Of a DNA stretch of 64,000 nt, positions 593-44,987 are shown piece by piece. The notes below the pieces were generated by a model. It made no database searches and had not been told where the DNA came from. It was given only the letters and a program-made list of their open reading frames with translations. Made by a program: the position numbers and the translations under genes. The DNA comes from a virus: the IMG/VR virus record IMGVR_UViG_3300037484_000731, positions 1-64,000 of that record. The stretch is one strand, 5' to 3'. The first letter of the stretch is position 1, and each line of letters opens with the position of its first letter.

Positions 593-908
593 CGTCTTTT
601 CCTCCATTATAGTTTTTAAAGAGCTTCACAAACTCATCCGGTCTTAAAGCTCTATCATCAATGTAAAAATCGGCAACAGGCTTACCCATTACCAATGAAT
701 CATAATTGATGCCAATTTGACCGACTTGACTCATGGTATTAGCCAACTTATCCCAGTGTCTCGCCGTAAAAATAATGATGGTGTGGCCTTCCTTATGTAA
801 TTTATTGACCATAGCTACAACATCTTCATTAATCTTTAAAATATTATAGACTCCGTCCTTGAACTCGGTCTCGCAAATAGTCCCATCAAAATCAAAACAA
901 AGTGTCAT
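576..908 (-). CDS. HAD-superfamily phosphatase (small sugar-phosphate phosphatase type)
   Basis: Motif I CFDFDGT, motif II FTAR, motif III/IV GKPVADFYIDDR. Start trimmed to internal Met (MTLCFDFDG), which gives an ATGA overlap with the upstream gene and an AAGGAG RBS. Confidence 0.6.
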   Translation of the reverse strand: MTLCFDFDGTICETEFKDGVYNILKINEDVVAMVNKLHKEGHTIIIFTARHWDKLANTMSQVGQIGINYDSLVMGKPVADFYIDDRALRPDEFVKLFKNYNGGKDDGKQS

Positions 909-1726
909 CCTCTTAACTCCTTTCTCTTTTGCATTTCGCATTCAAATACCTTTCTGCCTTCTTCCACTCCCAGAGCAGATTCAATATCCCTGATTCCACG
1001 TACCAATTTAAATATTCCTGCTGGTTCAATACTTGATAATTGATCTGATCCCCACATCATTCGATCAAGAGTTACATGACGTTCAATCCACGTTGCACCA
1101 AGAGCTACTGCAGCAAATGTCGTTACAAGACCAAATTCATGTCCGGAATAACCTATATCTTTATTGACGTACATATTCTGTAGCCATTTTATATAATAAA
1201 GATTAAGGTCTTTGATATTTGCTGGATAAGCAGAATTACAGTGCATAACCACGTCCGGATTGCCAACTTTAACTGCATTTATTATTTCATCTTCTGTAGA
1301 CATTCCAGTTGAGATGATCATTTTTTTAAAGTTTCCTCTACACCATTGTAATAAAGATAAATCTGTTAATTTCGCAGAAGGAACTTTTACAATAGAATCT
1401 CCAAACTGTTGTAAAAAGACCACTGAATCCATATCCCACGCAGAAGCAAACCACTTGATCCCCTTCTCCTTACAATATTGATCTATCTGTTCATATTGGT
1501 TGCCATCAAGCTCCAGTTTATATTTATATTCAATATATGAAATAGTCCCCCACGGCGTCACTCTCGGTATATTTTTTTGATGATCCGGTACGCAGACGTC
1601 CGGATTTCTTTTTTGAAATTTTACATAATCTATACCGGCTGCAGCACATACGTCAATCAGCCTCTTCACGATGTTCATATCACCATTATGATTGATTCCT
1701 ATGTCTGCAACAAGTTTAATACTCAT
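905..1726 (-). CDS. NeuB-family nonulosonic-acid (sialic-acid-like) synthase
   Basis: N-terminal IADIGINHNGDMNIVKRLIDVCAAAGIDYVKFQ matches the NeuB/PseI/LegI signature (IAEIGxNHNGs...A.aGAdavKFQ). Start trimmed to MSIKLVADIGINHNG (ATGA overlap with the HNH gene). Confidence 0.7.
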   Translation of the reverse strand: MSIKLVADIGINHNGDMNIVKRLIDVCAAAGIDYVKFQKRNPDVCVPDHQKNIPRVTPWGTISYIEYKYKLELDGNQYEQIDQYCKEKGIKWFASAWDMDSVVFLQQFGDSIVKVPSAKLTDLSLLQWCRGNFKKMIISTGMSTEDEIINAVKVGNPDVVMHCNSAYPANIKDLNLYYIKWLQNMYVNKDIGYSGHEFGLVTTFAAVALGATWIERHVTLDRMMWGSDQLSSIEPAGIFKLVRGIRDIESALGVEEGRKVFECEMQKRKELRG

Positions 1727-2148
1727 AATATTTCTCCCTGATGAATACAATAACCAAAAGCACCAATATGACAATTACAATTAAAACAAAGAACTCGAAA
1801 TCCTTCAGGATAGCCATTTTTCTTAAGCCATTCATAAAACTTCCAACCACCTTGTATATTAATTTCTTTTCTGTGTTTTCGGCCACCACCGTTCACGTGG
1901 TCAATAGTAAGAAAATTAATGTAGTTTTCTCCACAACATTCACATTTACCGCCGTAATATTGTATTACCTCTTGTTTTAATTTAATTCTGTATTTCTTTT
2001 GTGAACTCTTTTTAATATAGGCCATTGATTGTTTACCTTTGTCTGTCTGTGCATATTTCTTACGTGCACGAATACGTACTTGCTTACCATTTTTCGTCTT
2101 CCGATAAATTTTATCGTATTCTTTCTTGGCCTCTTTCCGGTTAGTCAT
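1723..2148 (-). CDS. HNH homing endonuclease, zinc-finger subfamily (paralog 1 of 8)
   Basis: GGKCECCGE...FLTIDHVNGGGRKHR...GFRVLCFNCN...GYCIH; Lys-rich N-terminus. Confidence 0.75.
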   Translation of the reverse strand: MTNRKEAKKEYDKIYRKTKNGKQVRIRARKKYAQTDKGKQSMAYIKKSSQKKYRIKLKQEVIQYYGGKCECCGENYINFLTIDHVNGGGRKHRKEINIQGGWKFYEWLKKNGYPEGFRVLCFNCNCHIGAFGYCIHQGEIL

Positions 2149-2809
2149 TATTACATGCCGTCCTTACGTGAGATTTTTCCAGCAGTACATGTACCCACTG
2201 CCGGTAATCAACAAAGAAATTTATAGTCATGTTATATTTGAGACAGTTTGTATCAAAGAATTGTTTCCATTCAGAAGCAGTTTTGAGATTAATATGCACT
2301 GCACCAAGTCCCCTTTCTTCCCAATTTTTGTCTCGTGCTACTGCATGAGTCGCAATCTGATGATATACGAACCTCTTGGCCACCCTACATTCCTCGGCAA
2401 AGGTCTTTTCTTCAATTTCAACCGGAATATGTTCCATTCCATCTAAATGAGTAATTAGATCAAACTGATTGTCCTTAAACATATTCAAGTTATCAGCACT
2501 GGCCTCAACAATATTGAGGTCTGGTCTATACTTTCGGATCGTCTTAGCTGCGATATCAACACACGTAATTTGCAGCCACGGATATTCTCTCCTGAAGAAA
2601 TCCACCCAAAATCCACGACCGCAGCCAATGTCGAGCAGCGTCACAGATTCTTTAATTGCGGATTTAATGGACTGATGAATTACATCATTTCCTCTGAGGA
2701 AAGTCTTTGGCCTTCCAGACCTCCAGCCATACGTCTTATCCTCCGTATAAAGAAGGTTGTATTTCATCTTTTCCCGCTTTATTAAGATATTCCGTTTGTC
2801 GTCGTCCAT
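2141..2809 (-). CDS. class I SAM-dependent methyltransferase
   Basis: Motif I LLDIGCGRGFW followed by an acidic motif II region. Confidence 0.55.
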   Translation of the reverse strand: MDDDKRNILIKREKMKYNLLYTEDKTYGWRSGRPKTFLRGNDVIHQSIKSAIKESVTLLDIGCGRGFWVDFFRREYPWLQITCVDIAAKTIRKYRPDLNIVEASADNLNMFKDNQFDLITHLDGMEHIPVEIEEKTFAEECRVAKRFVYHQIATHAVARDKNWEERGLGAVHINLKTASEWKQFFDTNCLKYNMTINFFVDYRQWVHVLLEKSHVRTACNND

Positions 2810-3504
2810 TTGACATCCCCTTGTTTTATTCTTCCTTCAACGATCCCAGACAATAAATCCATAATAAAATCATCAGTCTTGAAATTCGGATGCGACATAA
2901 ACAGATTATAGAAGAACTTGGCATTACCATTGAAATCGTGTCCATCTTCCTTCTTGCCAACATTAATGATATTCCCCTGCGATCTGATCTTCTGGGGCAG
3001 GTATCCATCCAGATACTCTTGGTAATTATCATGTACGAATGCCGGATTTTTACTTGCAAAAAAATCAATCCCAGTCATGTAAAGTAATGCTGGCTGCTGA
3101 TCCAAGATGTCCTGTATGATATAATTACCCATGGATGCGCTTTTTAAAGCCTTATTCACTTTCAAAAATACGTCCCTGATCGTGCGAGCGCATATGTATT
3201 TATTAAATTCATTAAGGTCTTCCTGTGAGCTTCCCTTCAAACAGAGCCATTTGACTCCCCGTATCTTCATCTCTTTTATTGGGAAAGGCTTCATTTCCCT
3301 GTAATATTGCCTATTTACATAGGCCACATCGCACCGGCGTCCGTAGTCCTTGTAGTACTTATCCTTATTAAAAGCCCACGAATGGCCGGACTTTACAACA
3401 ATATCATATGAGTCAATTAATTTACCCATGTCACGATCAACCAAATTCGGACAAGCTCCGACAAAGACAACTTTCTTTCCTTTTATAAACTCTTTGAAAC
3501 CCAT
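2782..3504 (-). CDS. DUF115/Maf-like (motility-accessory-factor-like) putative glycan transferase
   Basis: GKKVVFVGACPNL...DIVVKSG resembles the DUF115 core (IIGnGPSL...cN). Confidence 0.4.
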   Translation of the reverse strand: MGFKEFIKGKKVVFVGACPNLVDRDMGKLIDSYDIVVKSGHSWAFNKDKYYKDYGRRCDVAYVNRQYYREMKPFPIKEMKIRGVKWLCLKGSSQEDLNEFNKYICARTIRDVFLKVNKALKSASMGNYIIQDILDQQPALLYMTGIDFFASKNPAFVHDNYQEYLDGYLPQKIRSQGNIINVGKKEDGHDFNGNAKFFYNLFMSHPNFKTDDFIMDLLSGIVEGRIKQGDVKWTTTNGIS

Positions 3505-4139
3505 TATATTTTACTAACCTCCCAAATACCCATCACTGAATAAATATGATCTGGTTTAATTAAATCGTGCTCCCGTATTACCTCTAATGGTGTTCCTAAG
3601 TTAAAAGGTGGTTTTGATAAATCTCTCTTTTCAAGCATTAAGCAAGTGGTGTCCCCATTTATTGGAACATTAAAAGAAGTTGTTACCATGAGATATTTAG
3701 ACCCACTCTTCTTAATATTATCAAGAGCCATTAAGATTTCTTTATTTGTTAAATGAATAAATACACTTCTAATGAACAACATATCTGATTGCGGAGGAAT
3801 TTCATCAACAATATTCATATATTTAAACTCAAAATTTGGATACTTCTTTTTATTACTTTCTATAAGTCTTTCAACTATATCAATACCAAGATATTTAATA
3901 CCAACCCAGTCAATGGTATTTAACCAATAAAAATTACCACACCCACAATCAGTAAATGTTTTAATATTATATCTTTTAAATATGTCTGGCATTTGTTGTT
4001 TAAGCTTAACATACTTAGACAAACTTTTCATTTTCCCCCAGAGACCAATATTATTAAGTTTTACATGTCTATTATAAAGCCTGTTCCATTGTTCCCGCAA
4101 AGACAACCCCTTTACTTCCTGTTCCCATTGTTTATCCAT
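3504..4139 (-). CDS. class I SAM-dependent methyltransferase
   Basis: FTDCGCGNFYW glycine-rich motif I; about 210 aa. Confidence 0.5.
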   Translation of the reverse strand: MDKQWEQEVKGLSLREQWNRLYNRHVKLNNIGLWGKMKSLSKYVKLKQQMPDIFKRYNIKTFTDCGCGNFYWLNTIDWVGIKYLGIDIVERLIESNKKKYPNFEFKYMNIVDEIPPQSDMLFIRSVFIHLTNKEILMALDNIKKSGSKYLMVTTSFNVPINGDTTCLMLEKRDLSKPPFNLGTPLEVIREHDLIKPDHIYSVMGIWEVSKI

Positions 4140-4158
4140 TTTAATTTCTCCTATTTAA

Positions 4159-5628
4159 TTATAACTTTTCTATACTCGTCTTTCTTTCCATAGGATCAAG
4201 TTTGTAAACCTCAGTATCCTTATAATATGAATCCCCAACTACGTGTGTAGTTGATATTTCCTCAAAGATCGCTCCTTTGTCATCAGTCCAAAACTCGTGC
4301 GCCCTATACCGGTCAACAAGGATATCATCACCTTTCTTTAATTCATGTATGTCATCTTCCAGTTTAACAGTTAGGTTGCCAAATAAAACCCTGAAAGTCT
4401 CTTCCTTGCTATGATGAACATGATTGAGATATTTCTGATTTGGCAACATAATTATATATTTCTTACAATACTGCCTATTTATCACGTCCACAATTACTGC
4501 ACCATATTCCTTGAACTTATCAAATCCGTAATGATGGCAAAGCTCTGCAGTACACTTACTATTTAGAACGATACCAGCTTCGGCCATCATTCCTTTTGCC
4601 TGATGAAAGTACAATCTGACAAGTCTTATTTTATCCTTACTGTCATCATGATCGAGGATTGGATCATTTTTCTTATAATCTACACTGGCACTCACATGAC
4701 TTCTATATGCGCCATATTCTTCCGCAAGGAGTTGGTTTCTATGATTCGGGAATGCGAAGAATATATCTCCATGCTTGATGTCCGAACCCTTTGATACGTC
4801 CTTGGACGCCCAAACACCCCGTTTTAAAGCCCTGAGGCTCTCCCGTTCCTCTTCCGGAATGTTTTTAAGGTCGTCCCCACAATATTGCATGGCCATATCA
4901 ATAAATTCAACATAAATTTTAGCTTCATCCGGTATGATTGAATAACTATTCCCCTGATCAAGTTTGATGTGCCGTTCTATGATCCCAGCCCCTTTGCCTA
5001 CCGCTATTCGGGCAGCATCCATCGTTCCGGCTGATGAATGATCCGAGAACCCAATAGGTACATCATATCGCCTCTTCATCTTGCTTATAACGTCGAGGTT
5101 CATATATCTTGGCGGAGCGGGATAAATACCACAGCAGTGCAACAACGAAAAATTACTCCCCTTATGCTTGAGGAAATTATACAAGTTGTCGATTTCATCC
5201 CAGTTGAGCCCACCCGTGGATGCTATGATTAACTTATCCCAATCCGATATCCTATCCAAGAGTCCCCACTCATTGGCGCAGCAGCTTGCAACCTTGACAA
5301 AATCAACATTACACTGCTTTATGAAATCGACTGAGTTCTCATCAAAAGGAGTAATCCCCAACATGAAACCCCTTTCCTTAATGTAAGAACAGAGCTTGAG
5401 AAAATCCTCGTTCTGCATTCTGGTATCCATAAACCTCTTGACATTAGCGACGTTGTAATCCGTCTTAAAGTCCGGATGAATAAACGTGTCAATGTCTCTG
5501 CGCTGCAACTTGATCGCAAAGTAAAACTTGTCATACTCCTTCTTTATAGGAGCGAGAGCATCTACTATCCGACATGCCTTCTCAAGGCTGCCGTCATGAT
5601 TATTGGCCATTTCCCATACTATAAGCAT
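4159..5628 (-). CDS. NeuB-family nonulosonic-acid synthase paralog with C-terminal extension
   Basis: N-terminus VWEMANNHDGSLEKACRIVDALAP...AIKLQ resembles the NeuB N-terminal signature; 489 aa, so an extra C-terminal domain. Confidence 0.55.
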   Translation of the reverse strand: MLIVWEMANNHDGSLEKACRIVDALAPIKKEYDKFYFAIKLQRRDIDTFIHPDFKTDYNVANVKRFMDTRMQNEDFLKLCSYIKERGFMLGITPFDENSVDFIKQCNVDFVKVASCCANEWGLLDRISDWDKLIIASTGGLNWDEIDNLYNFLKHKGSNFSLLHCCGIYPAPPRYMNLDVISKMKRRYDVPIGFSDHSSAGTMDAARIAVGKGAGIIERHIKLDQGNSYSIIPDEAKIYVEFIDMAMQYCGDDLKNIPEEERESLRALKRGVWASKDVSKGSDIKHGDIFFAFPNHRNQLLAEEYGAYRSHVSASVDYKKNDPILDHDDSKDKIRLVRLYFHQAKGMMAEAGIVLNSKCTAELCHHYGFDKFKEYGAVIVDVINRQYCKKYIIMLPNQKYLNHVHHSKEETFRVLFGNLTVKLEDDIHELKKGDDILVDRYRAHEFWTDDKGAIFEEISTTHVVGDSYYKDTEVYKLDPMERKTSIEKL

Positions 5629-6704
5629 GATATCACCTCATCAAATTTTTCTTCTGGAACTGTATATCTTACAACCGTAACTGGGCTATTATTATCAAGA
5701 CCCAAGTTGTTATGGTGAATGTAAATGTTAATGACTCCCTTTCTCGGTAGAATACCATACACTGAGTGACAAGTATTCTTCGGTTTTCCGTCCTTGAAAT
5801 GTACAATCTGCTCGTGAAAGTATCTGCCCACAATATCGAAATTTACTCCATCGACTCCACGTACCAGCCTGATGCAGCAGTTCCCATCAATATCAAAGTA
5901 TGGGATTAATCCCACAAAAATCTTTTTATATCTGAAGATTGATGGTGTATAATAGTTGTCTCTGTCTGCCTGATATCCATTAATGTTAATAAGTCTGAAT
6001 TTGTCCCAGTGTATGAGGTCTTTGGATGTTGAGTATTGAATGTATCTGAATCCAACTGCAACGTTCGCCCTCACATATAGAAAATATTGATCAGTATTCT
6101 CATCGTAGACGCAACAGACTTGACCGTCAAATTCCGATCCCTTGCCAAAATTCTTTATAGCATCAATAAAACCCTCATTTTTCGTGGTAACAATAGGTTT
6201 CTTTCCTATCTGCTCCCAGTGCAGACCTGTTTCACTCTTAAAAAGGTAAAGTCCTCTTACATGCTCCAACATCTTCTTATTAGATAAGAGTCTCTTATGT
6301 TCGGACAAGTCAAAAACTTCTCTCGTACAAGGCCACTGAAATTTTTCTTCATATACTTTCTTGAAAACATCATAACTCGTTATTCCATGGAATGCCCTGT
6401 CATGCTTCCAGTTATCTACACCGCCTATACTATACAAAGTTCTGTTCTTTCCATAGAAGGGAGTAAAGTTGTGTGTCGCTCCTGATGCTTTTAGTACAAC
6501 GGTCTTGCTCTGATCGAAGGTCACACCATCTCTGCTATCAGTACAGATAGTATTAAAATGTTTAACCCAGCGATTACTGTATAATCTAACTATTCCGTCC
6601 GGACACTTAATGATGGAATAATAAATCGCCTTTCTTGCATCCGATTCATATATCTGGTTTTCATATTTGAGTTTCAATTCCTTCATATCACCCTCTTTAT
6701 CCAT
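5619..6704 (-). CDS. hypothetical protein (361 aa) inside glycan island
   Basis: Long ORF in the operon frame with no motif I can name; could be a glycosidase- or transferase-like beta-rich protein. Confidence 0.4.
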   Translation of the reverse strand: MDKEGDMKELKLKYENQIYESDARKAIYYSIIKCPDGIVRLYSNRWVKHFNTICTDSRDGVTFDQSKTVVLKASGATHNFTPFYGKNRTLYSIGGVDNWKHDRAFHGITSYDVFKKVYEEKFQWPCTREVFDLSEHKRLLSNKKMLEHVRGLYLFKSETGLHWEQIGKKPIVTTKNEGFIDAIKNFGKGSEFDGQVCCVYDENTDQYFLYVRANVAVGFRYIQYSTSKDLIHWDKFRLININGYQADRDNYYTPSIFRYKKIFVGLIPYFDIDGNCCIRLVRGVDGVNFDIVGRYFHEQIVHFKDGKPKNTCHSVYGILPRKGVINIYIHHNNLGLDNNSPVTVVRYTVPEEKFDEVISCL

Positions 6705-7225
6705 GATGTATCTCTGAATACTGCATCTGGTTTCAGTAGCCGATCAACTACTAACTTTACCCTATTGTAGTCATGACCCCCGATCCATCCATTAATTCTA
6801 ACTTTTGGCAACCATATTCTAACATCATGGTCTACTACATCGGGCTGATGATTTCCATCAATGTACACAAAATCAAATACTTTCTTCTCAACAAAGAGCT
6901 TGACGGCATTGTCACTTGTTTCCCTCAAGTGTTGTACATTTTCAAATTTGTCCAGTATGTCAGTCTTAAACTGCTTATATACGTCCTCCATCGGATATTT
7001 GTATGATGATGTGTCGCTATCATCATATCCATTCTTATATGGATCGACTGAAATTACATGATTAAAATTTTGAGCAAAAACCCTTGTTGAATCACCAACA
7101 TAAGAACCAATTTCTACCATAATCATCCCCTTTGTCGGAGCGGGAGACTTAAGGTTTATATAATCAACCATATCTTTAAGTCCAATGATCGCATATGTAG
7201 CGTTTCTGATTGATATCTTATTCAT
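6683..7225 (-). CDS. SAM-dependent methyltransferase (TylF/Methyltransf_24-like)
   Basis: MVEIGSYVGDSTRVFAQNF motif I. Start trimmed to MNKISIRN (GGTGGAG RBS) to remove a 125-nt overlap with the GT8 gene. Confidence 0.45.
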   Translation of the reverse strand: MNKISIRNATYAIIGLKDMVDYINLKSPAPTKGMIMVEIGSYVGDSTRVFAQNFNHVISVDPYKNGYDDSDTSSYKYPMEDVYKQFKTDILDKFENVQHLRETSDNAVKLFVEKKVFDFVYIDGNHQPDVVDHDVRIWLPKVRINGWIGGHDYNRVKLVVDRLLKPDAVFRDTSWIKRVI

Positions 7226-7946
7226 GATTATATCTCCACCATTCACGCTCAAGCATTGCATATTGTTCCTCTCGAACATTGGTCTTCTTCTGCCACGGCT
7301 TCTCGCCCACATAATGTAAAATCCGCATGGTTTGCAGCACATGCTTGAATTTGTTCGTATAGAGCATTCTCTTTTCTACATTAAAGACCTTGTCGAGGTA
7401 CATCATACGATTTCTGAAGTAATGATTGATTACCGTCTGATCCGGCATCTTATGTCCAGACCTCGCAATCCTGAGCATCTCAACATAAACCTGTTCATTA
7501 AGGAATTGCTGATTGACAACAAACACCCCAGAATTTATATCACGTCTCATCATATCATGTAACGGATCATAACCCTTGACTGCTGCAAATCCCGCAGTCG
7601 TTGCAAAAAGCTGCTTAATATCTCCTAATATGAGAGTATCCGAATCAATAAATACGAGCCGTTCATATCCCTTCATATTGAATATATCAAGCTTGTAGTA
7701 AGTACATCTTAATTTTGGGGCTGTCTTCTCAAAATCAGTCCCCGCATATCTTTTCTTATCAATTGGCTGCCATGTGATGTCTTTATATATTTGAGTCAGT
7801 TTTCCCTTTGTCTCCGGCAGCACCCCGTCATCAAGTATCACAACCGGAAGATCAAACCAAGGATTATTCTTGAGTAATGACCTTATCATTGCTTTAAAGC
7901 CAATTACAAACTCTTCGTTCAGCATCGTTACAAGTGCCGTTTTCAT
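7218..7946 (-). CDS. family GT8 retaining glycosyltransferase
   Basis: DxD motif LVFIDSDTLIL and C-terminal HYVGEKPW (GT8 HYxGxxKPW signature). Confidence 0.7.
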   Translation of the reverse strand: MKTALVTMLNEEFVIGFKAMIRSLLKNNPWFDLPVVILDDGVLPETKGKLTQIYKDITWQPIDKKRYAGTDFEKTAPKLRCTYYKLDIFNMKGYERLVFIDSDTLILGDIKQLFATTAGFAAVKGYDPLHDMMRRDINSGVFVVNQQFLNEQVYVEMLRIARSGHKMPDQTVINHYFRNRMMYLDKVFNVEKRMLYTNKFKHVLQTMRILHYVGEKPWQKKTNVREEQYAMLEREWWRYNHE

Positions 7947-8593
7947 TTTTTTTGCTCCTCTAAATGTTCAAAATCTTTGATGGTATCAACATCAACCATC
8001 TCACCTATTGGATAGAAAACTGTTTTCTTATTCCATAGATTTTTATTTAGTTTTTTTATTTCACCGGCATATGCAATAAAGATAGCATGACTTGCCTTGA
8101 ACATCCGTGGGTAATCCTGTCTTCTGTAAAGATCGTGTTTTATAATTTGTCTCCCAGTACAATCCTTCATACTATCAAAGAACCATCTATACGGATGGAT
8201 TTCATCATTTGTCTGTTCCTCTCTGCAGAGAAGTGACTTCCCTTTCACTCTATCGAAGAATTTATGTGCTGCAATGATTTGCTTCCATGTTCTGGTCGGA
8301 TAAGTAAGATAGAGCATTGTGATTTTATCAGTATCTGGTATATTGTAATGATTAATTACATCCAAAAGAACTGATTTAGTATGCGCCGTATCTGTACAAA
8401 GCTCTGCTCTCCTTATGTGAATATGAAATCCTTTGGTCAAAGCAACATGACAGATCGTCATATCATCCGTCGTCACAATTACTCGACTTACCAGTGACGA
8501 CGGAATCATATTAGCCGTATAAGAAAAAAGTTTTCTGTTCTTAAGCGGTAAACCTTTACTACCCTGACGAGCCGGTATTATTATCCAATTCAT
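7943..8593 (-). CDS. acylneuraminate (nonulosonate) cytidylyltransferase, NeuA/CTP_transf_3 family
   Basis: N-terminus NWIIIPARQGSKGLPLKN matches the CMP-sugar synthetase signature (AIIPARggSKgipgKN). Confidence 0.7.
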   Translation of the reverse strand: MNWIIIPARQGSKGLPLKNRKLFSYTANMIPSSLVSRVIVTTDDMTICHVALTKGFHIHIRRAELCTDTAHTKSVLLDVINHYNIPDTDKITMLYLTYPTRTWKQIIAAHKFFDRVKGKSLLCREEQTNDEIHPYRWFFDSMKDCTGRQIIKHDLYRRQDYPRMFKASHAIFIAYAGEIKKLNKNLWNKKTVFYPIGEMVDVDTIKDFEHLEEQKK

Positions 8594-9024
8594 ATGAGTC
8601 CCTCTTTCTTGAAGAGTTCCTCGATGTTGACGATCGCCCAGTTCACATCAAACATATCAATATGAATATGAGCACCAAAGCTAAATCCAACATCGGCATA
8701 GAAACCAAGCTGGTCTCCTTCCAGTACTTTCTGTCCTTTATAGACCATATTCTCCCTGAGATGACAGTACCTCACGTGGTAAAGTCCATTCTCAAGCCGA
8801 TGATCTATAATCACCACATTACCGAGAGAATGCTTACGATCAGTCCACCTCAACGACTCCTGATAGTTATCCATGTCATACGACACGTTCCCCTCTGCAA
8901 TCGCAAAAATGCTATCACTCTCTCTACTGATTAAATCCAATCCTCCATGGAACTCCTCTTTTCCTTTAAGGATTCGTTTCCCAAAGTGGCTGGTTATTAC
9001 CGCATTGTCAACTGGCAGCCTCAT
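8590..9024 (-). CDS. M23/LytM-family metallopeptidase
   Basis: HFGKR...FHGGLDL (HxxxD) and GAHIHIDMF (HxH). Confidence 0.6.
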   Translation of the reverse strand: MRLPVDNAVITSHFGKRILKGKEEFHGGLDLISRESDSIFAIAEGNVSYDMDNYQESLRWTDRKHSLGNVVIIDHRLENGLYHVRYCHLRENMVYKGQKVLEGDQLGFYADVGFSFGAHIHIDMFDVNWAIVNIEELFKKEGLI

Positions 9025-12853: not shown

Positions 12854-15091
12854 TTATGACCTGATCTCAATGCCCGCCTGAGTCAAAGCAGCATGTTGTG
12901 TCATGCCCTGCGCTACAAGCTCTCTTGTCCTGTCGGCGATCTTTTTAGTTTCGTCATCGGACTGAGCAGATAGCGAAGTCCTTGTCTGTTCGGTCATCTT
13001 GATTTTGTTAGGATAGTTCTTGAACAAGTCTGTAATGAAAGAAGAGATCGGTTTCTTGATCTCAATTTCCTTGTCATCGACTTTTTCAGAGAACATCACG
13101 ACTTGATCTCCCTGTTCGGACATCAAGACTGGCTTGAACAACTTGATGACATAGGGCGGAACTCCATCGAGTCCAGCCTCTTTACAAATTGCATCAGCCG
13201 TTGATTTCTTAGATTCAAGCCTTGTGTCTTTAAAGCTCTCACTCAGCTTGGCCACAGCCTTGTCCTTCTCTACAAGTTGCAACCTAACAATGTTAAGTTG
13301 ATCTTCGTATTTCTGGACTGCTGTACCCACTGCGTTATCCACAATGGATTGTACATCTGAAAGAGCAATCATATCACCGTCAGCTCTCTTGGAAACTATA
13401 GGAGTTTCTTCTTTCTTCTTCCCGATTGATTTGATCATCTCAGAGAATTTTGTCAGAAGACCCTCATTGTTCTTTTCAAGCTTTTGCTCAATGATCTGCT
13501 CAACATTTATGGTTTTATCATTATCGCCCATAAACTTTCCTCCGTCTTCTAATGATAAATTCCCCCTATAGCCAAGTCCCTGACTCATCGGCACGTCTAC
13601 CACGTGCTTCATAGAAGGAATGTTGCTCAGAGCTACTGCTCTGATTATATTCTTTCCTGTCTCCCGCCAGTTTCTAACAAGCTCCGGTGAAAGACTGGTG
13701 AATAGCCTACCGCCAAATACCAAATCCTTGAGTTTGGATGGAATCTGTTTGATGTCAGCCACAACCCTACGCCCCTTTCTCCTGAAGTTGGAGAGTAGAC
13801 CCAAATTTGGTAATTCTTCCCAAATGTCAACGTCTGCCATCTTGTACAGCTCTCTTAATATGAGCTGCTGATCTGAATGGCTAAGCTTAACATTTGGCTT
13901 GACCAATCCTTTATTAATTACTTCATTAGTCCATTTTGCGTAGTCCTCTAAGTCCTGCTCCGAGAACTGTAGTCCATAAGAGTTAGGATAATTGTTTAAT
14001 ACTTCAACCTCTTTTATCTCTGTGTAATCGCCAGAGAAGAGATCACTTATTAACTCTGACATCTTCATATCCTTATTCCCCTTATCTTCTTTTTTCCCAG
14101 TAAGAGGCTCATCAAATAACTCGTTCATCATCTCACTGGTCATATCTTCAAATTCGTCGCTATCAGTCATCTTTATTTCGTCATCCTTCACGAGCTGCCA
14201 GTCTCCCTGAGCGACTTTCTTATATTTCTTCCCATCCTTACGAGTTGAAATGTGTCCGATTGGATACCCCTTCACTGCTTTTTCGCTCTTTTCCTGCCCG
14301 ATCTCCTCAAGGTAGATTGCACTTACATGCTTAGCATGAGAAACAATATCATTATCAAAGTAATCATCTTCTTTCTTTACTATTCTATATCTCACGTCTC
14401 TGGAAACAACAACTTCTTTTTCTTTGGGAAAACGTGAAAAACCCTGAATATCCACAGCCTGAGTGTTCTTCTCTATAATAATCTTTAAGTTGTATCCATC
14501 AGGCTCATATTCTCCATTCTTCTTAGAAAAAGAAGACATTGCACTAAGCTGAAATTCCTCCCCAACTATGGCCTTAGCATACAAGCCATTTTTATCCTCA
14601 ACTCGTCTGCTAATCTCTCCTTTGTATTTGGGAGCAGTATCAATATATTCCTTCATTGTATGATATACATTACCAATTCTCGTACCTTCATATGTACTAA
14701 TATCAAATCCTTTGTCAATCCCTCTAACTTGCTTCACTAAATCAGAATCACGAGTCCACTCATCTATATCCTTGAACTGCCTTTCATCTACTTTAACAGT
14801 ATAATCACTCTCACTATCACCGCCACGAACTAAGACCTCATATGTAGAACCCATATTTATACCAAGAGGAGTAGCAATATATTCTTTATCTCCTTGGGCA
14901 AGCGGATTGTCAGCCTGTAATTCATCAAATTTATATCTTTCAGAGGATTGCAGTCCTCCCCCGCCCTTGGGAGCAAATTTCCCATTATCCCCTCTTGGAT
15001 GTTCTTCCTCTTCCCAATCAGAAAATTTCTTCGGATTAAGTTCCTCGGCAAAAATCTGATTAAAGAGTTCCTGTAAACTAATTTCTACCAT
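12854..15091 (-). CDS. large acidic head-morphogenesis protein (scaffold-like C-terminal half)
   Basis: 745 aa, Glu/Lys-rich with coiled-coil-like C-terminal 250 aa; position between portal and capsid. Confidence 0.35.
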   Translation of the reverse strand: MVEISLQELFNQIFAEELNPKKFSDWEEEEHPRGDNGKFAPKGGGGLQSSERYKFDELQADNPLAQGDKEYIATPLGINMGSTYEVLVRGGDSESDYTVKVDERQFKDIDEWTRDSDLVKQVRGIDKGFDISTYEGTRIGNVYHTMKEYIDTAPKYKGEISRRVEDKNGLYAKAIVGEEFQLSAMSSFSKKNGEYEPDGYNLKIIIEKNTQAVDIQGFSRFPKEKEVVVSRDVRYRIVKKEDDYFDNDIVSHAKHVSAIYLEEIGQEKSEKAVKGYPIGHISTRKDGKKYKKVAQGDWQLVKDDEIKMTDSDEFEDMTSEMMNELFDEPLTGKKEDKGNKDMKMSELISDLFSGDYTEIKEVEVLNNYPNSYGLQFSEQDLEDYAKWTNEVINKGLVKPNVKLSHSDQQLILRELYKMADVDIWEELPNLGLLSNFRRKGRRVVADIKQIPSKLKDLVFGGRLFTSLSPELVRNWRETGKNIIRAVALSNIPSMKHVVDVPMSQGLGYRGNLSLEDGGKFMGDNDKTINVEQIIEQKLEKNNEGLLTKFSEMIKSIGKKKEETPIVSKRADGDMIALSDVQSIVDNAVGTAVQKYEDQLNIVRLQLVEKDKAVAKLSESFKDTRLESKKSTADAICKEAGLDGVPPYVIKLFKPVLMSEQGDQVVMFSEKVDDKEIEIKKPISSFITDLFKNYPNKIKMTEQTRTSLSAQSDDETKKIADRTRELVAQGMTQHAALTQAGIEIRS

Positions 15092-15470
15092 TATTTTTCC
15101 TATTTAAATAATAAATGGCTTTCTTTAATATCTTTATATCATCTTTTAAAAATCCAATCCCACTATTACATAATTGACAAAGTAATCCTCTAATTCTTCC
15201 ATTTTTATGGTCATGATCAGTTATTAAAAATTCTTCCTGTTTTCCACAAATTGCACATTTACCATGCTGTTGCTGATATAATTTTAAATATTCATCCCAT
15301 GATATATTATATTTCCACCTTAAATTCATTTTTCTATTAAAAATAGGATCTTCTTTAATCCTTCTACGATATGTAGCCTTTTCATTAAATTTCTTACGGC
15401 ATTGAATACTACAATAGATTTGAGTATTATTTTTTTCTTTAAATTCTTTATTACAATTTTTACATATCAT
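15078..15470 (-). CDS. endonuclease-VII-type HNH nuclease
   Basis: CAICGKQEEFLITDHDHKNGRIRGLLCQLCNSGIGFL (Endonuclease_7 signature); N-terminal CNKEF...C..C zinc ribbon. Confidence 0.7.
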   Translation of the reverse strand: MICKNCNKEFKEKNNTQIYCSIQCRKKFNEKATYRRRIKEDPIFNRKMNLRWKYNISWDEYLKLYQQQHGKCAICGKQEEFLITDHDHKNGRIRGLLCQLCNSGIGFLKDDIKILKKAIYYLNRKNNGRN

Positions 15471-15857: not shown

Positions 15858-16418
15858 TCAAATAAGTATTGCTACTGCTACAACTGTAGTCCATCCATCC
15901 TGCACCTCGGCAGACTTGGATATACTCATCGATTTAAAATTGTTGCTGCCCTTAATAGTGGACAGCATAATCTTGGCTATTTCTTCGGCTTCCTTGCCCG
16001 TTTCCTTTTCATTTTGACCGAAGCTATGATGTTCAGAGATGTAACCATAACCATTTCTATTATAAGCCGGTACGGAAATCTCTGCTCCATTCATAAGTCT
16101 ACCAGTGACATTCTCCTTTTTCGCATGAAAGGCCACCCCTATAGCCGAAGAGATAAGCCTATTCTTTTCATTACTTTCACATCTCGACAGGACACAATGA
16201 ACAATTGAACCTGTTGGAATCTGATCAAACTCCAATTTATCAAAATTCGGTATGACATTCGGCGGTAAAATACTGGATACCTGTACCAGATTAAACCCCG
16301 CAATCCCAGCATCCCTAAGAGCCATCTCAAATGATACGAGCTGTTTCTTTGCGCTGCCAACACCACAGGTTAATACGACTTTCTTCGGTTGATATATCAT
16401 GTTAAGTTGATCCCCCAA
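15858..16418 (-). CDS. pyruvoyl-dependent arginine decarboxylase (PdaD/AaxB family) homolog
   Basis: LRDAGIAGFNLVQVSSILPP aligns with archaeal PdaD LLNAGIGNVNLIRISSIMPP, including the Ser-Ser self-cleavage site; about 180 aa. True start probably MIYQPKK (16400, ATGA overlap). Confidence 0.7.
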   Translation of the reverse strand: MGDQLNMIYQPKKVVLTCGVGSAKKQLVSFEMALRDAGIAGFNLVQVSSILPPNVIPNFDKLEFDQIPTGSIVHCVLSRCESNEKNRLISSAIGVAFHAKKENVTGRLMNGAEISVPAYNRNGYGYISEHHSFGQNEKETGKEAEEIAKIMLSTIKGSNNFKSMSISKSAEVQDGWTTVVAVAILI

Positions 16419-17677
16419 TCCTTTAGTCTATTTATCTCCTTCTGGGCTTCCTCGATAACATCGGGGAACATACCCAGATCATAACTTTTTACTTGTTCAA
16501 CTATATCCTTAAGTTTGTCAACTGTCTCCTCAAGTGTATTGCCAAGAGCAACAACAGAACCAATCTCAGGAACATGATTACCCTGAGGTATAACATAATA
16601 ATTGTTGTTGATCATCGTAAGATCACGGAGTTTAACGTTATCCCGTATACTTTCAGGAAACTGTATTGCTTGCCAATTATCATCCGCAAACCTTGAATGG
16701 ATGAGCAGCTCCACACCAAATTTATAGTCTGTCTCAAAATCAATACACCTACCCTCTGCTCCAAACCAAAGTATGTCAGGTAAGTTCTTAAACATATCAA
16801 TGTAAATCTCACTCGGCGGGCTACCCGCTCTTGTACAAGGGTCTATGCAATATGCTGTCTTGTCTTTCACGATCCGGAGTTCTGTGCTGAAGAAATTCCT
16901 GTAGTGATACCTACTGAGTGTATCTGCAATGACATCATTAAAGCCTCTGATCTCCTCCGGAAATCGATTATAGTCCTGTACGATAGCAATATAACCTTTA
17001 TCCTTAATTTCAACGCCATATATACCCTTAGTGGGAAACTGGCCATCAATCGTATAACCATCATACCCTGTCTCCACCGCATCTCTTATGTTCTCCTCTA
17101 CAATAAATTTCTTGCTATATTTCATTGCTCCGAGGCTATGTTCAAGTTGATCGAGTTTAGGTTCTATAAGCTTGTAATTCTCTGCATAGAAGGTCTCAGT
17201 ATCTCCCCGTGTGACATTGATCTTGACAAATTGGTCTGCATGCTGCTTGAGATATTTCCTCAAAGATTCCATCCCGATCACAACTTCATATTTACCAACC
17301 GGTAATCCAAGTGATTTGAGATGTTCCTTGGATTTGTCACGATAAATCTCCAGTTCCTCTCCCTTTCTGCTGCCCCAGACCCTCTTCCCCAATTCTTCGA
17401 GATGCACCTGTATACCCCCACAGTAGACATCCGGAAAGACGAACAAATCCACATCATGAATTATATCAAAGAAATCATATATTTTCTGTATCCCCGCAAG
17501 CCCGCTTCCGATAAGTAGTTCATTTGAAGTGGGAAAGGAGTTCTGCCATGGGTTGTAATAGTAGACCTTTCCAAAGTACTTAGCCAGAGTTACAGCCATC
17601 TCAACAAATAAACCATTATCATAAATACAAACTGATTTCGTGTTATAATTCTGGATCATCATCATCCTCCTCGTCAC
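16397..17677 (-). CDS. hypothetical 426-aa protein paired with PdaD homolog
   Basis: Track start is a GTG. The likely start is the third Met at 17659 (AGGAGG RBS). No confident motif; vague resemblance to ATP-grasp-type ligases only. Confidence 0.45.
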   Translation of the reverse strand: MTRRMMMIQNYNTKSVCIYDNGLFVEMAVTLAKYFGKVYYYNPWQNSFPTSNELLIGSGLAGIQKIYDFFDIIHDVDLFVFPDVYCGGIQVHLEELGKRVWGSRKGEELEIYRDKSKEHLKSLGLPVGKYEVVIGMESLRKYLKQHADQFVKINVTRGDTETFYAENYKLIEPKLDQLEHSLGAMKYSKKFIVEENIRDAVETGYDGYTIDGQFPTKGIYGVEIKDKGYIAIVQDYNRFPEEIRGFNDVIADTLSRYHYRNFFSTELRIVKDKTAYCIDPCTRAGSPPSEIYIDMFKNLPDILWFGAEGRCIDFETDYKFGVELLIHSRFADDNWQAIQFPESIRDNVKLRDLTMINNNYYVIPQGNHVPEIGSVVALGNTLEETVDKLKDIVEQVKSYDLGMFPDVIEEAQKEINRLKDWGINLT

Positions 17678-17773
17678 CTTCTAAGTCTTCATTTTCTATA
17701 AAAAAATTACCCATGGCATCCTCGTCCTCATCTCTTTCATCCACATATCCGAGTAATTCCATATCTGGCATCA
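17642..17773 (-). CDS. small highly acidic peptide (43 aa, MMPDMELLGYVDERDEDEDAMGNFFIENEDLEGDEEDDDDPEL)
   Basis: Hand-translated; AAGGAA RBS 6 nt upstream; overlaps the start of the next gene. Below the ORF-track length cut-off. Confidence 0.25.
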
Positions 17774-17785
17774 TATCTTATTCCT

Positions 17786-19372
17786 TTATACCAAATATTC
17801 AATTGTTATTACTCCTCGGTTATAGGAAGTAACATCAAACTCGGTAGAATCAAAATACCCCGAAGTAGTTCTTACAATGTTAATATTGGTATTATCTATA
17901 AAATAACCACCGTAATAAGAACTGCTTGATGATCCAGACCCAAAAATAGAAATACTATACGTATTAGCATCATCAAAAATTAAAATATCTACAGAAAGTA
18001 TTTTTGATCTGGTGAGACCATGTGCAATCGCTACAGCCGTACTACTATCCATATTCCAATCACCAATATTTATTATCTTTGTTTTCTTTAGTTGTCCGGT
18101 AATTGTTTGGGACACATTTTCATCGATTGTTGTACCGTCTGGCTTATAATTATTTATAAATATAGTATTATCTGTATGTGAATTATAATTATGGTTTATT
18201 GTATTTGCATACCCGTTATAAATAAAATTATTTGAAAAACAATTTCTTCCTCCTCCATCAAAATAGTAAGCATCTAAATCTAAAACACATCCACTTACAT
18301 TTATTCCAGTAGAAGTATTAAAATAAATTGAACCTTCAAACATATTACAACCCACAATATTATAACCAATAGTTATCATTTGACACCAAACTGGATAGGT
18401 ATTGTGATTAAGAAGACATCCGACTAAATTACCATGTCCATTATTTGCAATGGTGTTTCCATATAAAAGTACACCGTAATAACAATCATTTATTTTACAA
18501 TTAGAAACAGTGTTGTTTCCAGACTCAATTGTAAGTCCTTCTCTACAACCATATATATCAAGATTATTTAATCTTATATATTCCGCATAATCAGCATCAA
18601 GAAAAACACCTTCATAACAATTATATATTTCACAATTCATTATAGATAAATGTGTTAGTCTATCTCTTGCAGGATCATAAGTATTGATTCCTTTAAGATC
18701 AAATCCTGAAATTATAACATTATCAATTTTAGTTATTTTTTGTGAAGCAACAGTGATACCATTTCTATTCCCTGCAGAAGTCACAGCCTTAAATGAAGTG
18801 GCCACCCCTCCGTACAGTCGTAAATTTGAATATCTGACATTTACAGCAGGAGCAGTCCCATCAAATAATGAAGTTGATGTTTCTCCAGTTTTTAAAGTTA
18901 TTTGAGAAGAATAACCATCTCCAAAAATAACTTGGCCATCAATAGGAACTAATTTTTTTGATATATAATTTCCAGAAGGAAAATAAACAGATAAATGTGC
19001 ATTTAGTGCGTTTTGAATTGCAGTAGTATCATCAGTAGAACCATCTCCTTTTGCACCATAATTCTTTACATTACCAGCTAATCTGGAAGACAACATTAAA
19101 TTTGGAAGAACATTAACAGCATCTGAAACTTCTTCTGCTGTAACATAACTCCCCGTAACAGCTCCATCAAGTGCTCTTGCAATATCTGCTGCAATTACAA
19201 CCCCGTCATCATCAGGATCATATTCTGCCTTATACATGTCACCACCACCGCCAGTTCCACCCATATTATCATAAAGATATTGACAATTTTCAATGAGCTT
19301 ATTAAGGTAAGTATATACCATCCACTTACCCTTAACAATCAGATTAATAGGCGATATGGTATTCCAAGCCAT
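17786..19372 (-). CDS. right-handed beta-helix (pectate-lyase-3 / tailspike-depolymerase-like) protein
   Basis: NVKNYGAKGDGSTDDTTAIQNALNA is the canonical Pectate_lyase_3 N-terminal motif; repetitive N/G/Y/I-rich beta-helix-like body. Confidence 0.7.
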   Translation of the reverse strand: MAWNTISPINLIVKGKWMVYTYLNKLIENCQYLYDNMGGTGGGGDMYKAEYDPDDDGVVIAADIARALDGAVTGSYVTAEEVSDAVNVLPNLMLSSRLAGNVKNYGAKGDGSTDDTTAIQNALNAHLSVYFPSGNYISKKLVPIDGQVIFGDGYSSQITLKTGETSTSLFDGTAPAVNVRYSNLRLYGGVATSFKAVTSAGNRNGITVASQKITKIDNVIISGFDLKGINTYDPARDRLTHLSIMNCEIYNCYEGVFLDADYAEYIRLNNLDIYGCREGLTIESGNNTVSNCKINDCYYGVLLYGNTIANNGHGNLVGCLLNHNTYPVWCQMITIGYNIVGCNMFEGSIYFNTSTGINVSGCVLDLDAYYFDGGGRNCFSNNFIYNGYANTINHNYNSHTDNTIFINNYKPDGTTIDENVSQTITGQLKKTKIINIGDWNMDSSTAVAIAHGLTRSKILSVDILIFDDANTYSISIFGSGSSSSSYYGGYFIDNTNINIVRTTSGYFDSTEFDVTSYNRGVITIEYLV

Positions 19373-44984: not shown

Positions 44985-44987
44985 TTT

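What the first reader, a model, noticed from the sequence alone, without database searches (positions are those of the whole stretch)
16397..17677. Uncharacterised 426-aa protein translationally coupled to the PdaD homolog
Its stop overlaps the likely PdaD start (MIYQPKK, ATGA), implying a stoichiometric partner. I cannot place it in a known family. There is only a vague resemblance to ATP-grasp or amide-ligase-type enzymes (FVKINVTRGDTE, CIDPCTRAGSP). If it is a ligase, an agmatine-conjugating activity is a testable idea, for example agmatinylation of a protein, nucleic acid or glycan. The annotated GTG start is probably wrong, because an AGGAGG sits 6 nt before the third Met.
Basis: inference. 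Interest (0 to 1): 0.6.

Follow-up and report, generated by a model that had tools for sequence, protein, structure and literature searches.

The report
Phage ATP-grasp ligase paired with decarboxylase
This phage gene encodes a PurD-like ATP-grasp ligase from a large, uncharacterised, almost virus-only family that nearly always sits next to a small amine-making decarboxylase, which suggests that phages make an unknown agmatine or polyamine conjugate late in infection.

Summary
The ORF (best start ATG 17659, 420 aa) ends in an ATGA overlap with a genuine pyruvoyl arginine decarboxylase (PdaD). It has no Pfam or PHROG hit.

It belongs to a family of about 950 clusters at 50% identity. The family is essentially confined to uncultured phage contigs and usually lies between the portal and terminase genes.

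- In 66 of 81 informative loci, a divergent AdoMetDC-fold pyruvoyl decarboxylase lies immediately upstream, usually overlapping.
- In the window's clade that gene is replaced by the unrelated-fold PdaD immediately downstream. This holds in four of four contigs carrying the closest PdaD relatives.
- Other members carry N-terminal HAD-phosphatase or acylphosphatase fusions, or inteins inside the catalytic motifs.

Best reading: an ATP-dependent amide ligase that consumes the decarboxylase's amine (agmatine here) through an acyl-phosphate intermediate. The carboxylate partner and the biological role are unknown. This is a new enzyme family and module within a known superfamily.

The parts
16397..17659 (-). 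CDS of the PurD-like ATP-grasp enzyme (420 aa from the third ATG; the mechanical ORF extends to the GTG at 17677)
17666..17671 (-). AGGAGG Shine-Dalgarno sequence, 6 nt upstream of the third ATG (17659)
   Evidence: Sequence read directly.
17189..17230 (-). Motif FVKINVTRGDTETF (K146, R151, G152, D153, E155, F157). It contains the ATP-binding Lys strand and the B-domain loop.
   Evidence: Invariant or near-invariant columns. Aligns to PurD 'vVKADGLAAGKG'. An intein is inserted at TRGD| in homologue P0363.
16808..16846 (-). Motif IDPCTRAGSPPSE (D273, R277, G279, S280, P281, P282, E284), the catalytic loop equivalent to PurD LEFNVRLGDPE
   Evidence: Profile alignment to PurD 2yw2. Invariant columns. 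An intein is inserted at IDP|C in homologue P0241.
16397..16400 (-). ATGA stop/start overlap between the ATP-grasp gene and the PdaD gene
   Evidence: Sequence. The same 4-nt overlap occurs in L097 and L098 (ATGA) and in L099 (TTGA).
15858..16400 (-). CDS of the pyruvoyl-dependent arginine decarboxylase (PdaD) homologue, 180 aa. It is the predicted supplier of agmatine.
   Evidence: PF01862 153.9 bits; TIGR00286 116 bits, above the 106.95 cutoff. The VSSILPP cleavage motif is present in the translation.
17643..17774 (-). 43-aa, very acidic small ORF (MMPDMELLGYVDERDEDEDAMGNFFIENEDLEGDEEDDDDPEL). It fills the gap between the tail-fibre gene and the ATP-grasp gene and overlaps the ATP-grasp start. 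Its status and relevance are uncertain.
   Evidence: AAGGA lies about 8 nt before its ATG. No Pfam hit. It is not part of the conserved module, because the upstream slot in other loci is occupied by the AdoMetDC-like gene.

Best explanation
The gene encodes an ATP-dependent carboxylate-amine ligase of the ATP-grasp superfamily. Its whole three-domain architecture is closest to PurD (glycine + phosphoribosylamine ligase).

It is the core of a virus-specific two-gene module, sometimes three genes, whose usual partner is a small self-processing pyruvoyl decarboxylase.

Proposed mechanism in this phage:
1. PdaD converts L-arginine to agmatine.
2. The ATP-grasp enzyme phosphorylates a carboxylate with ATP to form an acyl-phosphate.
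3. The primary amine of agmatine attacks the acyl-phosphate, giving an N-acyl- or aminoacyl-agmatine amide plus ADP and Pi.

The carboxylate is most likely a small metabolite, possibly a phosphorylated one. The pathway is expressed with the head-assembly and packaging genes, so the product is probably needed late in infection, for example as a polycation or polyamine analogue, or as another virion- or packaging-associated compound.

Shown: the fold, the conserved catalytic motifs, the family's distribution, and the gene linkage and fusions.
Inferred: that the ligase uses the decarboxylase product, that the amine is agmatine, that the acceptor is a small molecule, and the physiological role.
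For: Fold.
- The AF2 model has pLDDT 95.2.

Catalytic motifs.
- K146 in 'VKI' aligns to PurD 'VVK', 'IVEE' to 'VIEE', and 'IDPCxRxGSPP' to 'LEFNVRLGDPE'. D273 and R277 are invariant.
- Three independent intein insertion sites fall exactly in these motifs in homologues. This is typical of active sites of proteins that matter to the phage.

Linkage to decarboxylases.
- An AdoMet_dc-fold gene lies immediately upstream on the same strand in 66 of 84 loci (81 have upstream sequence), mostly with overlaps of -1, -4 or -11 nt.
- These proteins keep the invariant Ser that forms the pyruvoyl group and the catalytic Cys. Both align to Aquifex AdoMetDC. Pfam PF02675 scores range from 19.8 to 62.7 bits.
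- In the window's clade, the unrelated-fold PdaD takes the adjacent position in four of four contigs.
- The window protein keeps all 46 invariant family positions and is 55-59% identical to AdoMetDC-linked members.

Why arginine.
- Phage AdoMetDC homologues are known to have become arginine or ornithine decarboxylases, and PdaD is described as the non-homologous isofunctional ADC (PMC9992855, PMC10407285).
- Arginine is therefore the only known substrate shared by the two folds.

Hints of a phosphorylated small-molecule intermediate.
- Some members have N-terminal HAD-phosphatase fusions (P0256, P0260, P0315, P0317, P0329), and one has an acylphosphatase fusion (P0273).

Late expression.
- The gene lies in the portal-to-capsid gene block on the same strand, with no '-' strand terminator-like site between the portal and PdaD.
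- Its GC content (0.40-0.42) equals that of the core genes.
- In other phages it sits between the terminase and the portal.
Against: - There is no biochemical evidence, and the carboxylate partner is unknown.
- About 15 of 81 loci have no decarboxylase within 6 kb. Distant members (28-38% identity) also lack one. The ligase therefore does not strictly need a phage-encoded decarboxylase.
- A related phage (L096) keeps PdaD without an ATP-grasp gene in the 13 kb available.
- The substrate of the divergent AdoMetDC-like partners is untested. It could be AdoMet, ornithine or something new, so the 'common product = agmatine' argument is indirect.
- The Asn of the PurD E-x-N Mg site is Cys or variable here. 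From my own knowledge, PurK and PurT also lack that Asn.
- The HAD and acylphosphatase fusions would equally fit a carboxylase-type or other phosphoryl chemistry.
- A third partner, family 'X', has no known function and is not explained.
Confidence: 0.5

Rival explanations
1. It is a macromolecule-modifying ATP-grasp enzyme. It amidates Asp/Glu side chains or C-terminal carboxylates of a virion or host protein, or a carboxylated glycan or nucleobase, with agmatine. Candidate protein targets include the adjacent 43-aa acidic peptide or small proteins encoded nearby.
For: - The gene lies inside the morphogenesis block.
- A 43-aa, extremely acidic ORF overlaps its start.
- The window phage encodes NeuB x2, a CMP-sugar cytidylyltransferase and a GT8, that is, genes for carboxylate-bearing nonulosonic acids.
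- There is precedent for ATP-grasp amidation of a glycan carboxylate: Cj1438C with the Cj1435 phosphatase (PMC11800379).
- The small partner protein X could be a carrier or substrate.
Against: - Neither the acidic ORF nor the sugar cluster is conserved in other module-bearing phages. The only widely conserved partner is the decarboxylase.
- The HAD and acylphosphatase fusions point to phosphorylated small molecules.
Confidence: 0.15
2. It is a carboxylase-type ATP-grasp enzyme, like PurK or biotin carboxylase. It uses bicarbonate to form carboxyphosphate and N-carboxylates the amine to a carbamate or ureido product, rather than ligating an organic acid.
For: - The D-P-C-x-R loop resembles the E-x-(A/S)-P-R loop of PurK and PurT rather than E-x-N (plus my own knowledge).
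- One family member is fused to an acylphosphatase domain. From my own knowledge, that domain handles carbamoyl phosphate in HypF.
- A distant member is annotated 'phosphoribosylaminoimidazole carboxylase'.
Against: - It is also the only PDB family detected by sequence.
- From my own knowledge, carbamates of simple amines are unstable, and no follow-up enzyme is conserved nearby.
Confidence: 0.12
3. The order of reactions is reversed. The ATP-grasp enzyme first builds an alpha-amino-acid conjugate, for example through a side-chain carboxylate or amine. The pyruvoyl decarboxylase then decarboxylates that conjugate.
For: - In most loci the gene order is decarboxylase then ligase, tightly coupled, which says nothing about reaction order.
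- The AdoMetDC-like partners are very divergent, with Pfam scores near or below the cutoff, and might have a novel, bulkier substrate.
Against: - The window's PdaD scores above the NCBIfam equivalog cutoff for arginine decarboxylase.
- From my own knowledge, characterised PdaD enzymes are arginine-specific.
- A related phage keeps PdaD alone, which suggests it works on a free host metabolite.
Confidence: 0.08
4. It is an ordinary auxiliary purine-biosynthesis gene (a true PurD/GAR synthetase), and the adjacency to the decarboxylase is coincidental.
For: - PurD is the best structural and sequence match.
- The phage also encodes an adenylosuccinate-synthetase homologue.
Against: - TIGR00877 purD scores 14.8 bits against a cutoff of 288, and there are no Pfam GARS domains.
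- Identity to PurD is only 13-18%, and the PurD GDPE motif is GSPP here.
- The family is virtually absent from 185,579 species genomes (9 loci, mostly MAG contigs).
- Adjacency to a decarboxylase occurs in about 80% of loci, with overlapping codons and two unrelated decarboxylase folds.
Confidence: 0.03

Closest known systems
PurD, phosphoribosylamine-glycine ligase (GAR synthetase), e.g. Aquifex aeolicus 2yw2
   Different: Identity is 13-18%. It fails the purD equivalog model (14.8 bits against 288). GDPE is GSPP and the E-x-N Asn is missing. It is encoded almost only by phages, in late operons, and is coupled to pyruvoyl decarboxylases instead of purine genes. The substrates are therefore almost certainly different.
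Phage AdoMetDC/SpeD homologues neofunctionalised to arginine or ornithine decarboxylases (Li et al. 2023, PMC9992855; PMC10407285)
   Same: These are phage-encoded pyruvoyl decarboxylases of the AdoMet_dc fold, about 120 aa, that make agmatine or putrescine rather than dcAdoMet. PdaD is named there as the non-homologous isofunctional enzyme.
   Different: Those papers do not mention an ATP-grasp partner (0 occurrences). The partners found here have no BLAST match in 50,697 GenBank phage records, and neither does PdaD. The ATP-grasp enzyme adds a consuming step that the 'polyamine supply' model does not include.
Campylobacter jejuni Cj1438C ATP-grasp amidoligase with the Cj1435 phosphatase (capsule glucuronamide pathway; PMC11800379)
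   Same: The pathway logic is the same. An ATP-grasp enzyme joins a small primary amine, supplied as an amine-phosphate, to a carboxylate. A separate phosphatase then removes the phosphate. This parallels the HAD-phosphatase fusions seen in this family.
   Different: [quoted passage not shown] The phage enzyme is PurD-like, stand-alone in this window, and has no conserved glycan context.
Glutathionylspermidine synthetase-type polyamine-amide ligases (GspS/TryS) and MfnD tyramine-glutamate ligase (from my own knowledge)
   Same: These are ATP-dependent ligases that form an amide between a metabolite carboxylate and a (poly)amine produced by a decarboxylase.
   Different: There is no Pfam GSP_synth hit, and the ATP-grasp subfamily differs. 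None of these enzymes is known from phage morphogenesis operons. The GspS-like ATP-grasp linked to AdoMetDC in bacterial PspA/DUF350 operons (PMC11237479) is a separate system.

Membership tests
ATP-grasp superfamily | Three-domain fold with a central ATP-grasp (B) lid domain | tested here: met
ATP-grasp superfamily | Conserved nucleotide- and Mg-site residues: the Lys on the B-domain-preceding strand, the acidic hinge, the acidic Mg ligand and the catalytic Arg in the C-domain loop | tested here: met
   K146, E188, D273 and R277 are invariant in 42 sequences. They align to PurD VVK, IEE and the E and R of LEFNVRLG. The Asn of E-x-N is not conserved.
ATP-grasp superfamily | ATP-dependent carboxylate-nucleophile ligation through an acyl-phosphate | not testable with these tools
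   This needs an enzyme assay.
PurD / GAR synthetase (TIGR00877; Pfam GARS_N/A/C) | Score above the curated family cutoff | tested here: not met
   TIGR00877 scores 14.8 bits against a cutoff of 288. No GARS Pfam domain at E<=1.
PurD / GAR synthetase (TIGR00877; Pfam GARS_N/A/C) | Signature R-x-G-D-P-E loop, and a cellular or purine-pathway context | tested here: not met
   The loop is R-x-G-S-P-P. The gene lies in a phage late operon next to PdaD. The family occurs in only 9 loci among 185,579 species genomes.
Pyruvoyl-dependent arginine decarboxylase PdaD (the neighbouring gene) | Family model above cutoff, and the Ser-Ser self-cleavage motif | tested here: met
   PF01862 153.9 bits (cutoff 22.7). 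TIGR00286 116 bits (cutoff 106.95). PRK12398 158.7 bits is below its cutoff of 207. The 'VQVSSILPP' motif is present.
AdoMet_dc-fold pyruvoyl decarboxylases (partners in other loci) | Pfam PF02675 match, the Glu-Ser processing site and the catalytic Cys | tested here: met
   PF02675 scores 62.7, 58.8, 32.5 and 27.3 bits above the cutoff of 25; one member scores 19.8, below it. S70 and C90 are invariant and align to the ES and TCG of 2iii. Substrate specificity was not tested.
Protein-modifying ATP-grasp ligases (RimK, LysX/ArgX, TTL, RiPP macrocyclases) | Closest structural or sequence similarity to these subfamilies, and a conserved adjacent substrate protein or peptide | tested here: inconclusive
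Glutathionylspermidine synthetase family | Pfam GSP_synth domain | tested here: not met
   No such hit at E<=1.

The most novel reading that the evidence does not exclude
Hundreds of uncultured tailed phages carry a dedicated, virus-only pathway. A pyruvoyl decarboxylase of either of two unrelated folds feeds a PurD-derived ATP-grasp ligase, with optional phosphatase domains and an unknown 120-aa partner. The pathway would make a previously unknown amide-linked agmatine or polyamine conjugate, or install it on DNA or virion components, during head assembly and packaging. This would be the real reason why phages keep 'speD-like' genes that have lost AdoMetDC activity.
Probability: 0.45. Interest if true: 0.8.

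Novelty: new variant of a known kind. Interest (0 to 1): 0.68.

Why it matters
'speD'/AdoMetDC-like genes are among the most commonly reported phage auxiliary metabolic genes. Recent biochemistry showed that some phage copies no longer decarboxylate AdoMet and make agmatine or putrescine instead.

This finding shows that, in a large set of uncultured phages, such decarboxylases are translationally coupled to a conserved ligase. The amine is then probably an intermediate rather than the end product.

The family is large: about 950 clusters at 50% identity. It is absent from PHROGs and from all but two GenBank phage records. It is important enough to the phage to host inteins at three catalytic-site positions.

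The family offers an experimentally tractable two-gene system for three things:
- discovering a new phage metabolite or modification;
- assigning a function to a large block of viral 'dark matter';
- testing ideas about polycation supply during DNA packaging.

It also documents the first PdaD-fold arginine decarboxylases seen in phages in the collections searched here.

Tried and rejected
Sequence-level annotation of the ORF
- Pfam, PHROGs and NCBIfam gave nothing significant.
- BFVD viral structures gave no close relative; the best TM-score was 0.44.
- The AFDB50 fold library was unavailable.

Searches of GenBank phages
- The ATP-grasp protein matched only two hot-spring viruses, at 28% identity.
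- PdaD gave no match, and the divergent AdoMetDC-like partner gave no match.
- The canonical-type partner matched only three records at about 30% identity, which says nothing about substrate.

Finding PdaD relatives
- A single-sequence pattern scan of viral contigs for PdaD found nothing.
- I replaced it with a protein search plus contig look-ups.

Literature
- No paper links an ATP-grasp enzyme with phage and agmatine or pyruvoyl enzymes.
- The GspS-like ATP-grasp/AdoMetDC/DUF350 system is a different system.

Ideas rejected
- A true PurD, because it fails the family cutoffs.
- A recent foreign island, because its GC matches the core genes.
- A stand-alone transcription unit: promoter-like hits are at chance level and there is no terminator.

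Partner family X
- It has no Pfam, PHROG or PDB sequence relative.
- It could not be modelled because of tool restrictions.

Contexts of HAD-fused members
- One look-up returned only a 1.9-kb contig with no DNA.
Full report
**1. The observation**

The ORF at 16397..17677 on the minus strand is real. Its TGA stop (16399-16397) overlaps the ATG (16400-16398) of the downstream gene, forming ATGA.

The downstream gene is a confident PdaD homologue. Pfam PF01862 scores 153.9 bits (E=4e-45). NCBIfam TIGR00286 scores 116 bits, above its equivalog cutoff of 106.95. The VSSILPP self-cleavage motif is present.

AGGAGG (17671-17666) is followed directly by ATGATGATG, so the third ATG (17659) lies 6 nt downstream. 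Homologues start M-[ILV]-Q-x-Y-x-x-K, which aligns with that third Met. The protein is therefore most likely 420 aa, and the GTG start is an artefact of mechanical ORF calling.

There is no significant Pfam hit and no PHROG hit. The only NCBIfam hit is purD at 14.8 bits, against a cutoff of 288.

**2. What the protein is**

A direct sequence search of the PDB finds only PurD from Aquifex (2yw2), at E=1.5e-4. With the family profile this improves to E=4.8e-8.

An AlphaFold2 model built on 42 homologues has mean pLDDT 95.2 and pTM 0.92.

- Foldseek against the PDB returns PurD structures as the top ten hits (E=7e-21, TM 0.72). PurT, PurK, biotin carboxylases and L-amino-acid ligases follow.

Residue-level alignments place the family motifs on PurD as follows:

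| Family motif | PurD equivalent |
|---|---|
| VK(I/V) (K146) | ATP-binding VVK |
| IVEE | hinge VIEE |
| IDPCxRxGSPP (D273, R277, G279, S280) | LEFNVRLGDPE |

The protein is thus a full-length, PurD-like ATP-grasp enzyme, but not a PurD orthologue. It fails the curated models, the GDPE motif has become GSPP, and identity to PurD is 13-18%.

**3. The family**

The protein search returned more than 1,118 homologues of about 418 aa. None has Pfam domains, and nearly all are 'hypothetical' proteins from metagenomes. Identity is 50-59% across the top 120.

An exhaustive profile search of 1.84 billion cluster representatives finds 948 clusters at E<=1e-30 and 1,498 at E<=1e-3.

The family is essentially viral and uncultured:

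- Only two of 50,697 GenBank phage records carry even a distant member (28% identity). Both are Aquificae hot-spring viruses, and one is annotated 'phosphoribosylaminoimidazole carboxylase'.
- BFVD has no close structural relative.
- Only 9 loci were found in one genome from each of 185,579 prokaryotic species. Most are MAG contigs. One is a Bradyrhizobium chromosome, where the match is split across two reading frames.

In phage contigs the gene typically lies between the terminase and portal genes, or otherwise inside the morphogenesis block.

In the window it sits in one co-directional block, in this order: portal, a 139-aa protein, the tail fibre, the ATP-grasp gene, PdaD, a 112-aa protein, endonuclease VII, a 745-aa protein with an ADP-ribosyltransferase domain, and then the capsid genes. 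There is no terminator-like site on that strand between the portal and PdaD. The GC content of the two genes (0.40-0.42) matches the core genes.

**4. The conserved partner**

Across 84 fetched loci, an AdoMet_dc-fold ORF of about 120 aa lies immediately upstream on the same strand in 66. Only 81 loci have enough upstream sequence to judge. The junction usually overlaps by 1, 4 or 11 nt.

Pfam PF02675 scores for these partners range from 19.8 to 62.7 bits. The divergent majority share the consensus QPITESFLALDTWxDHxGAYLxICSC. Their invariant Ser and Cys align to the pyruvoyl-forming Ser and the catalytic Cys of Aquifex AdoMetDC.

The window has no such gene. It has PdaD instead, which is a pyruvoyl decarboxylase of an unrelated fold.

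I searched for PdaD relatives and pulled their contigs. The three closest relatives (54-64% identity) all carry the C-terminus of this ATP-grasp family immediately upstream, with a 4-nt stop/start overlap (L097, L098, L099). The next relative (L096) comes from a phage with a syntenic capsid module. It has PdaD but no ATP-grasp gene in the 13 kb available.

The window's ATP-grasp protein keeps all 46 invariant positions. Its nearest relatives (55-59% identity) are AdoMetDC-linked. The PdaD arrangement therefore looks like a non-orthologous displacement of the decarboxylase within one ligase family.

**5. Further variants**

- *Fusions to the ligase.* Five family clusters carry an N-terminal HAD-phosphatase domain with the DxDxT motif (PF00702 33.5 bits for P0260). 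One carries an N-terminal acylphosphatase domain (PF00708 57.2 bits).
- *Inteins.* Nine of the 150 best-scoring family representatives are 758-793 aa long and match the family profile in two separate stretches. I read three of them, and each carries an intein at a different site: TRGD|xETF in P0363, EVKD| in P0267 and IDP|CxRxG in P0241. All three sites fall inside the most conserved motifs. From my own knowledge, inteins home to catalytic motifs of proteins that the phage needs.
- *Partner X.* A third recurrent partner of about 120 aa has invariant His, Glu and Asp residues and no Pfam, PHROG or PDB sequence relative. It occurs in 18 of 84 loci. It flanks the ligase even where no decarboxylase is present, and it lies next to the HAD-fused and acylphosphatase-fused forms. 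In L081 it is fused to an AdoMet_dc domain.
- *Loci without a decarboxylase.* About 15 of 81 loci have none within 6 kb.

**6. Mechanism**

*Shown:* the ATP-grasp fold with intact nucleotide-site and catalytic-loop residues, and tight, repeated, codon-overlapping linkage to pyruvoyl decarboxylases of two unrelated folds.

*Inferred:*

- The ligase uses the decarboxylase's amine as its nucleophile.
- Arginine is the only substrate known to be shared by the PdaD and AdoMetDC folds. Phage AdoMetDC homologues are documented to have become arginine or ornithine decarboxylases, with PdaD as the non-homologous isofunctional enzyme (PMC9992855, PMC10407285). The common intermediate is therefore most simply agmatine, and certainly so for this window, given the PdaD equivalog score.
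- By analogy with PurD, the enzyme would phosphorylate a small carboxylate to an acyl-phosphate. The primary amine of agmatine would then attack it, giving an N-acyl- or aminoacyl-agmatine.
- The phosphatase and acylphosphatase fusions suggest that in some lineages one substrate or the product is phosphorylated. This matches the C. jejuni capsule pathway, where the ATP-grasp amidoligase Cj1438C uses amine-phosphates and Cj1435 removes the phosphate (PMC11800379).
- The constant location in packaging and head operons suggests the product is needed late. A polycation for DNA condensation is attractive but untested.

*Rivals:* macromolecule agmatinylation, PurK-like N-carboxylation, a reversed reaction order, and a true PurD. 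The last is essentially excluded.

**7. Novelty**

No paper in the searchable library links an ATP-grasp enzyme to phage pyruvoyl decarboxylases or agmatine. The virosphere polyamine papers do not mention such a partner.

PdaD itself has no homologue in the GenBank phage set.

The superfamily and the chemistry are known. The family, its virus-restricted distribution and the decarboxylase-ligase module are not. I therefore rate it as a new variant of a known kind, with a substantial chance of new biochemistry.

**8. Verdict**

The specific substrate pair and the biological role remain to be determined experimentally.

Noticed in passing
window 51628-52668 (-): A 346-aa short adenylosuccinate-synthetase homologue (PF00709, E=4e-44, N-terminal half only). 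It resembles phage PurZ in size, which raises the possibility of a 2-aminoadenine (Z) genome. The adjacent 377-aa ORF (50441-51574) has no Pfam hit. RecA lies at 49367-50392.
   Followed up: partly
window 576-9024 (-): A sugar cluster. It has two NeuB-family nonulosonic-acid synthases (905-1774; 4159-5628, the latter with a cupin domain), a CMP-sugar cytidylyltransferase (7943-8593), a GT8 glycosyltransferase (7218-7946), a methyltransferase-like ORF and a small HAD-like phosphatase (576-941). The phage may make or decorate something with a sialic-acid-like sugar.
   Followed up: partly
window 12854-15091 (-): A 745-aa protein in the head-gene block carries an ADP-ribosyltransferase exoenzyme domain (PF03496, 25.6 bits, residues 116-241). 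It may be an injected Alt-like effector. From my own knowledge, agmatine is the classic model acceptor of arginine-specific ARTs. No link was tested.
   Followed up: no
window 17643-17774 (-): A 43-aa ORF with 21 Asp/Glu residues and its own AAGGA site. It overlaps the ATP-grasp start. It is not found in other loci and has no family hit.
   Followed up: partly
proteins P0241, P0267, P0363 (homologues): Nine of the 150 best-scoring family representatives are 758-793 aa long and match in two stretches. The three I read carry inteins inserted at three different sites, each inside a catalytic motif (IDP|C, EVKD|, TRGD|).
   Followed up: partly
proteins P0256, P0260, P0315, P0317, P0329, P0273; loci L100-L103: Some members have N-terminal HAD-phosphatase or acylphosphatase domains fused to the ATP-grasp enzyme. 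In L100 and L103 the neighbour is partner family X rather than a decarboxylase.
   Followed up: partly
L001:7312-7659, L007:5284-5646, L032:5621-5995, L100:7683-8069, L081:5235-5990 and others: Unknown partner family 'X', about 120 aa, with invariant H, E and D residues and an EPGxxPDAPY motif. It recurs next to the module and is fused to an AdoMet_dc domain in L081. It has no Pfam, PHROG or PDB sequence relative.
   Followed up: partly
L096 (JGI 3300033489 contig), 4486-4995: A phage with a capsid module syntenic to the window keeps PdaD (54% identity) but has no ATP-grasp gene in the 13 kb retrieved. PdaD can therefore occur alone.
   Followed up: partly
L094 (Bradyrhizobium oligotrophicum S58 chromosome), 6001-7222: This is the only complete bacterial genome with a family member. 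The match is split across two reading frames (6001-6384 and 6344-7222), so it may be a frameshifted prophage copy.
   Followed up: no
window 15078-15470 (-) and 17786-19372 (-): The endonuclease VII-family gene (PF02945) and the pectate-lyase-like tail-fibre gene flanking the module have clearly lower GC (0.29-0.35) than the core genes (0.40-0.44). This suggests they are the recently exchanged pieces, and the ATP-grasp/PdaD pair is not.
   Followed up: partly
window 42024-48408 (-), 58209-63881 (-): The replication genes are a DnaE-type Pol III alpha (986 aa) and a DnaG-DnaB primase-helicase fusion (823 aa). There is also a giant 1,890-aa ORF of unknown function at the window edge.
   Followed up: no
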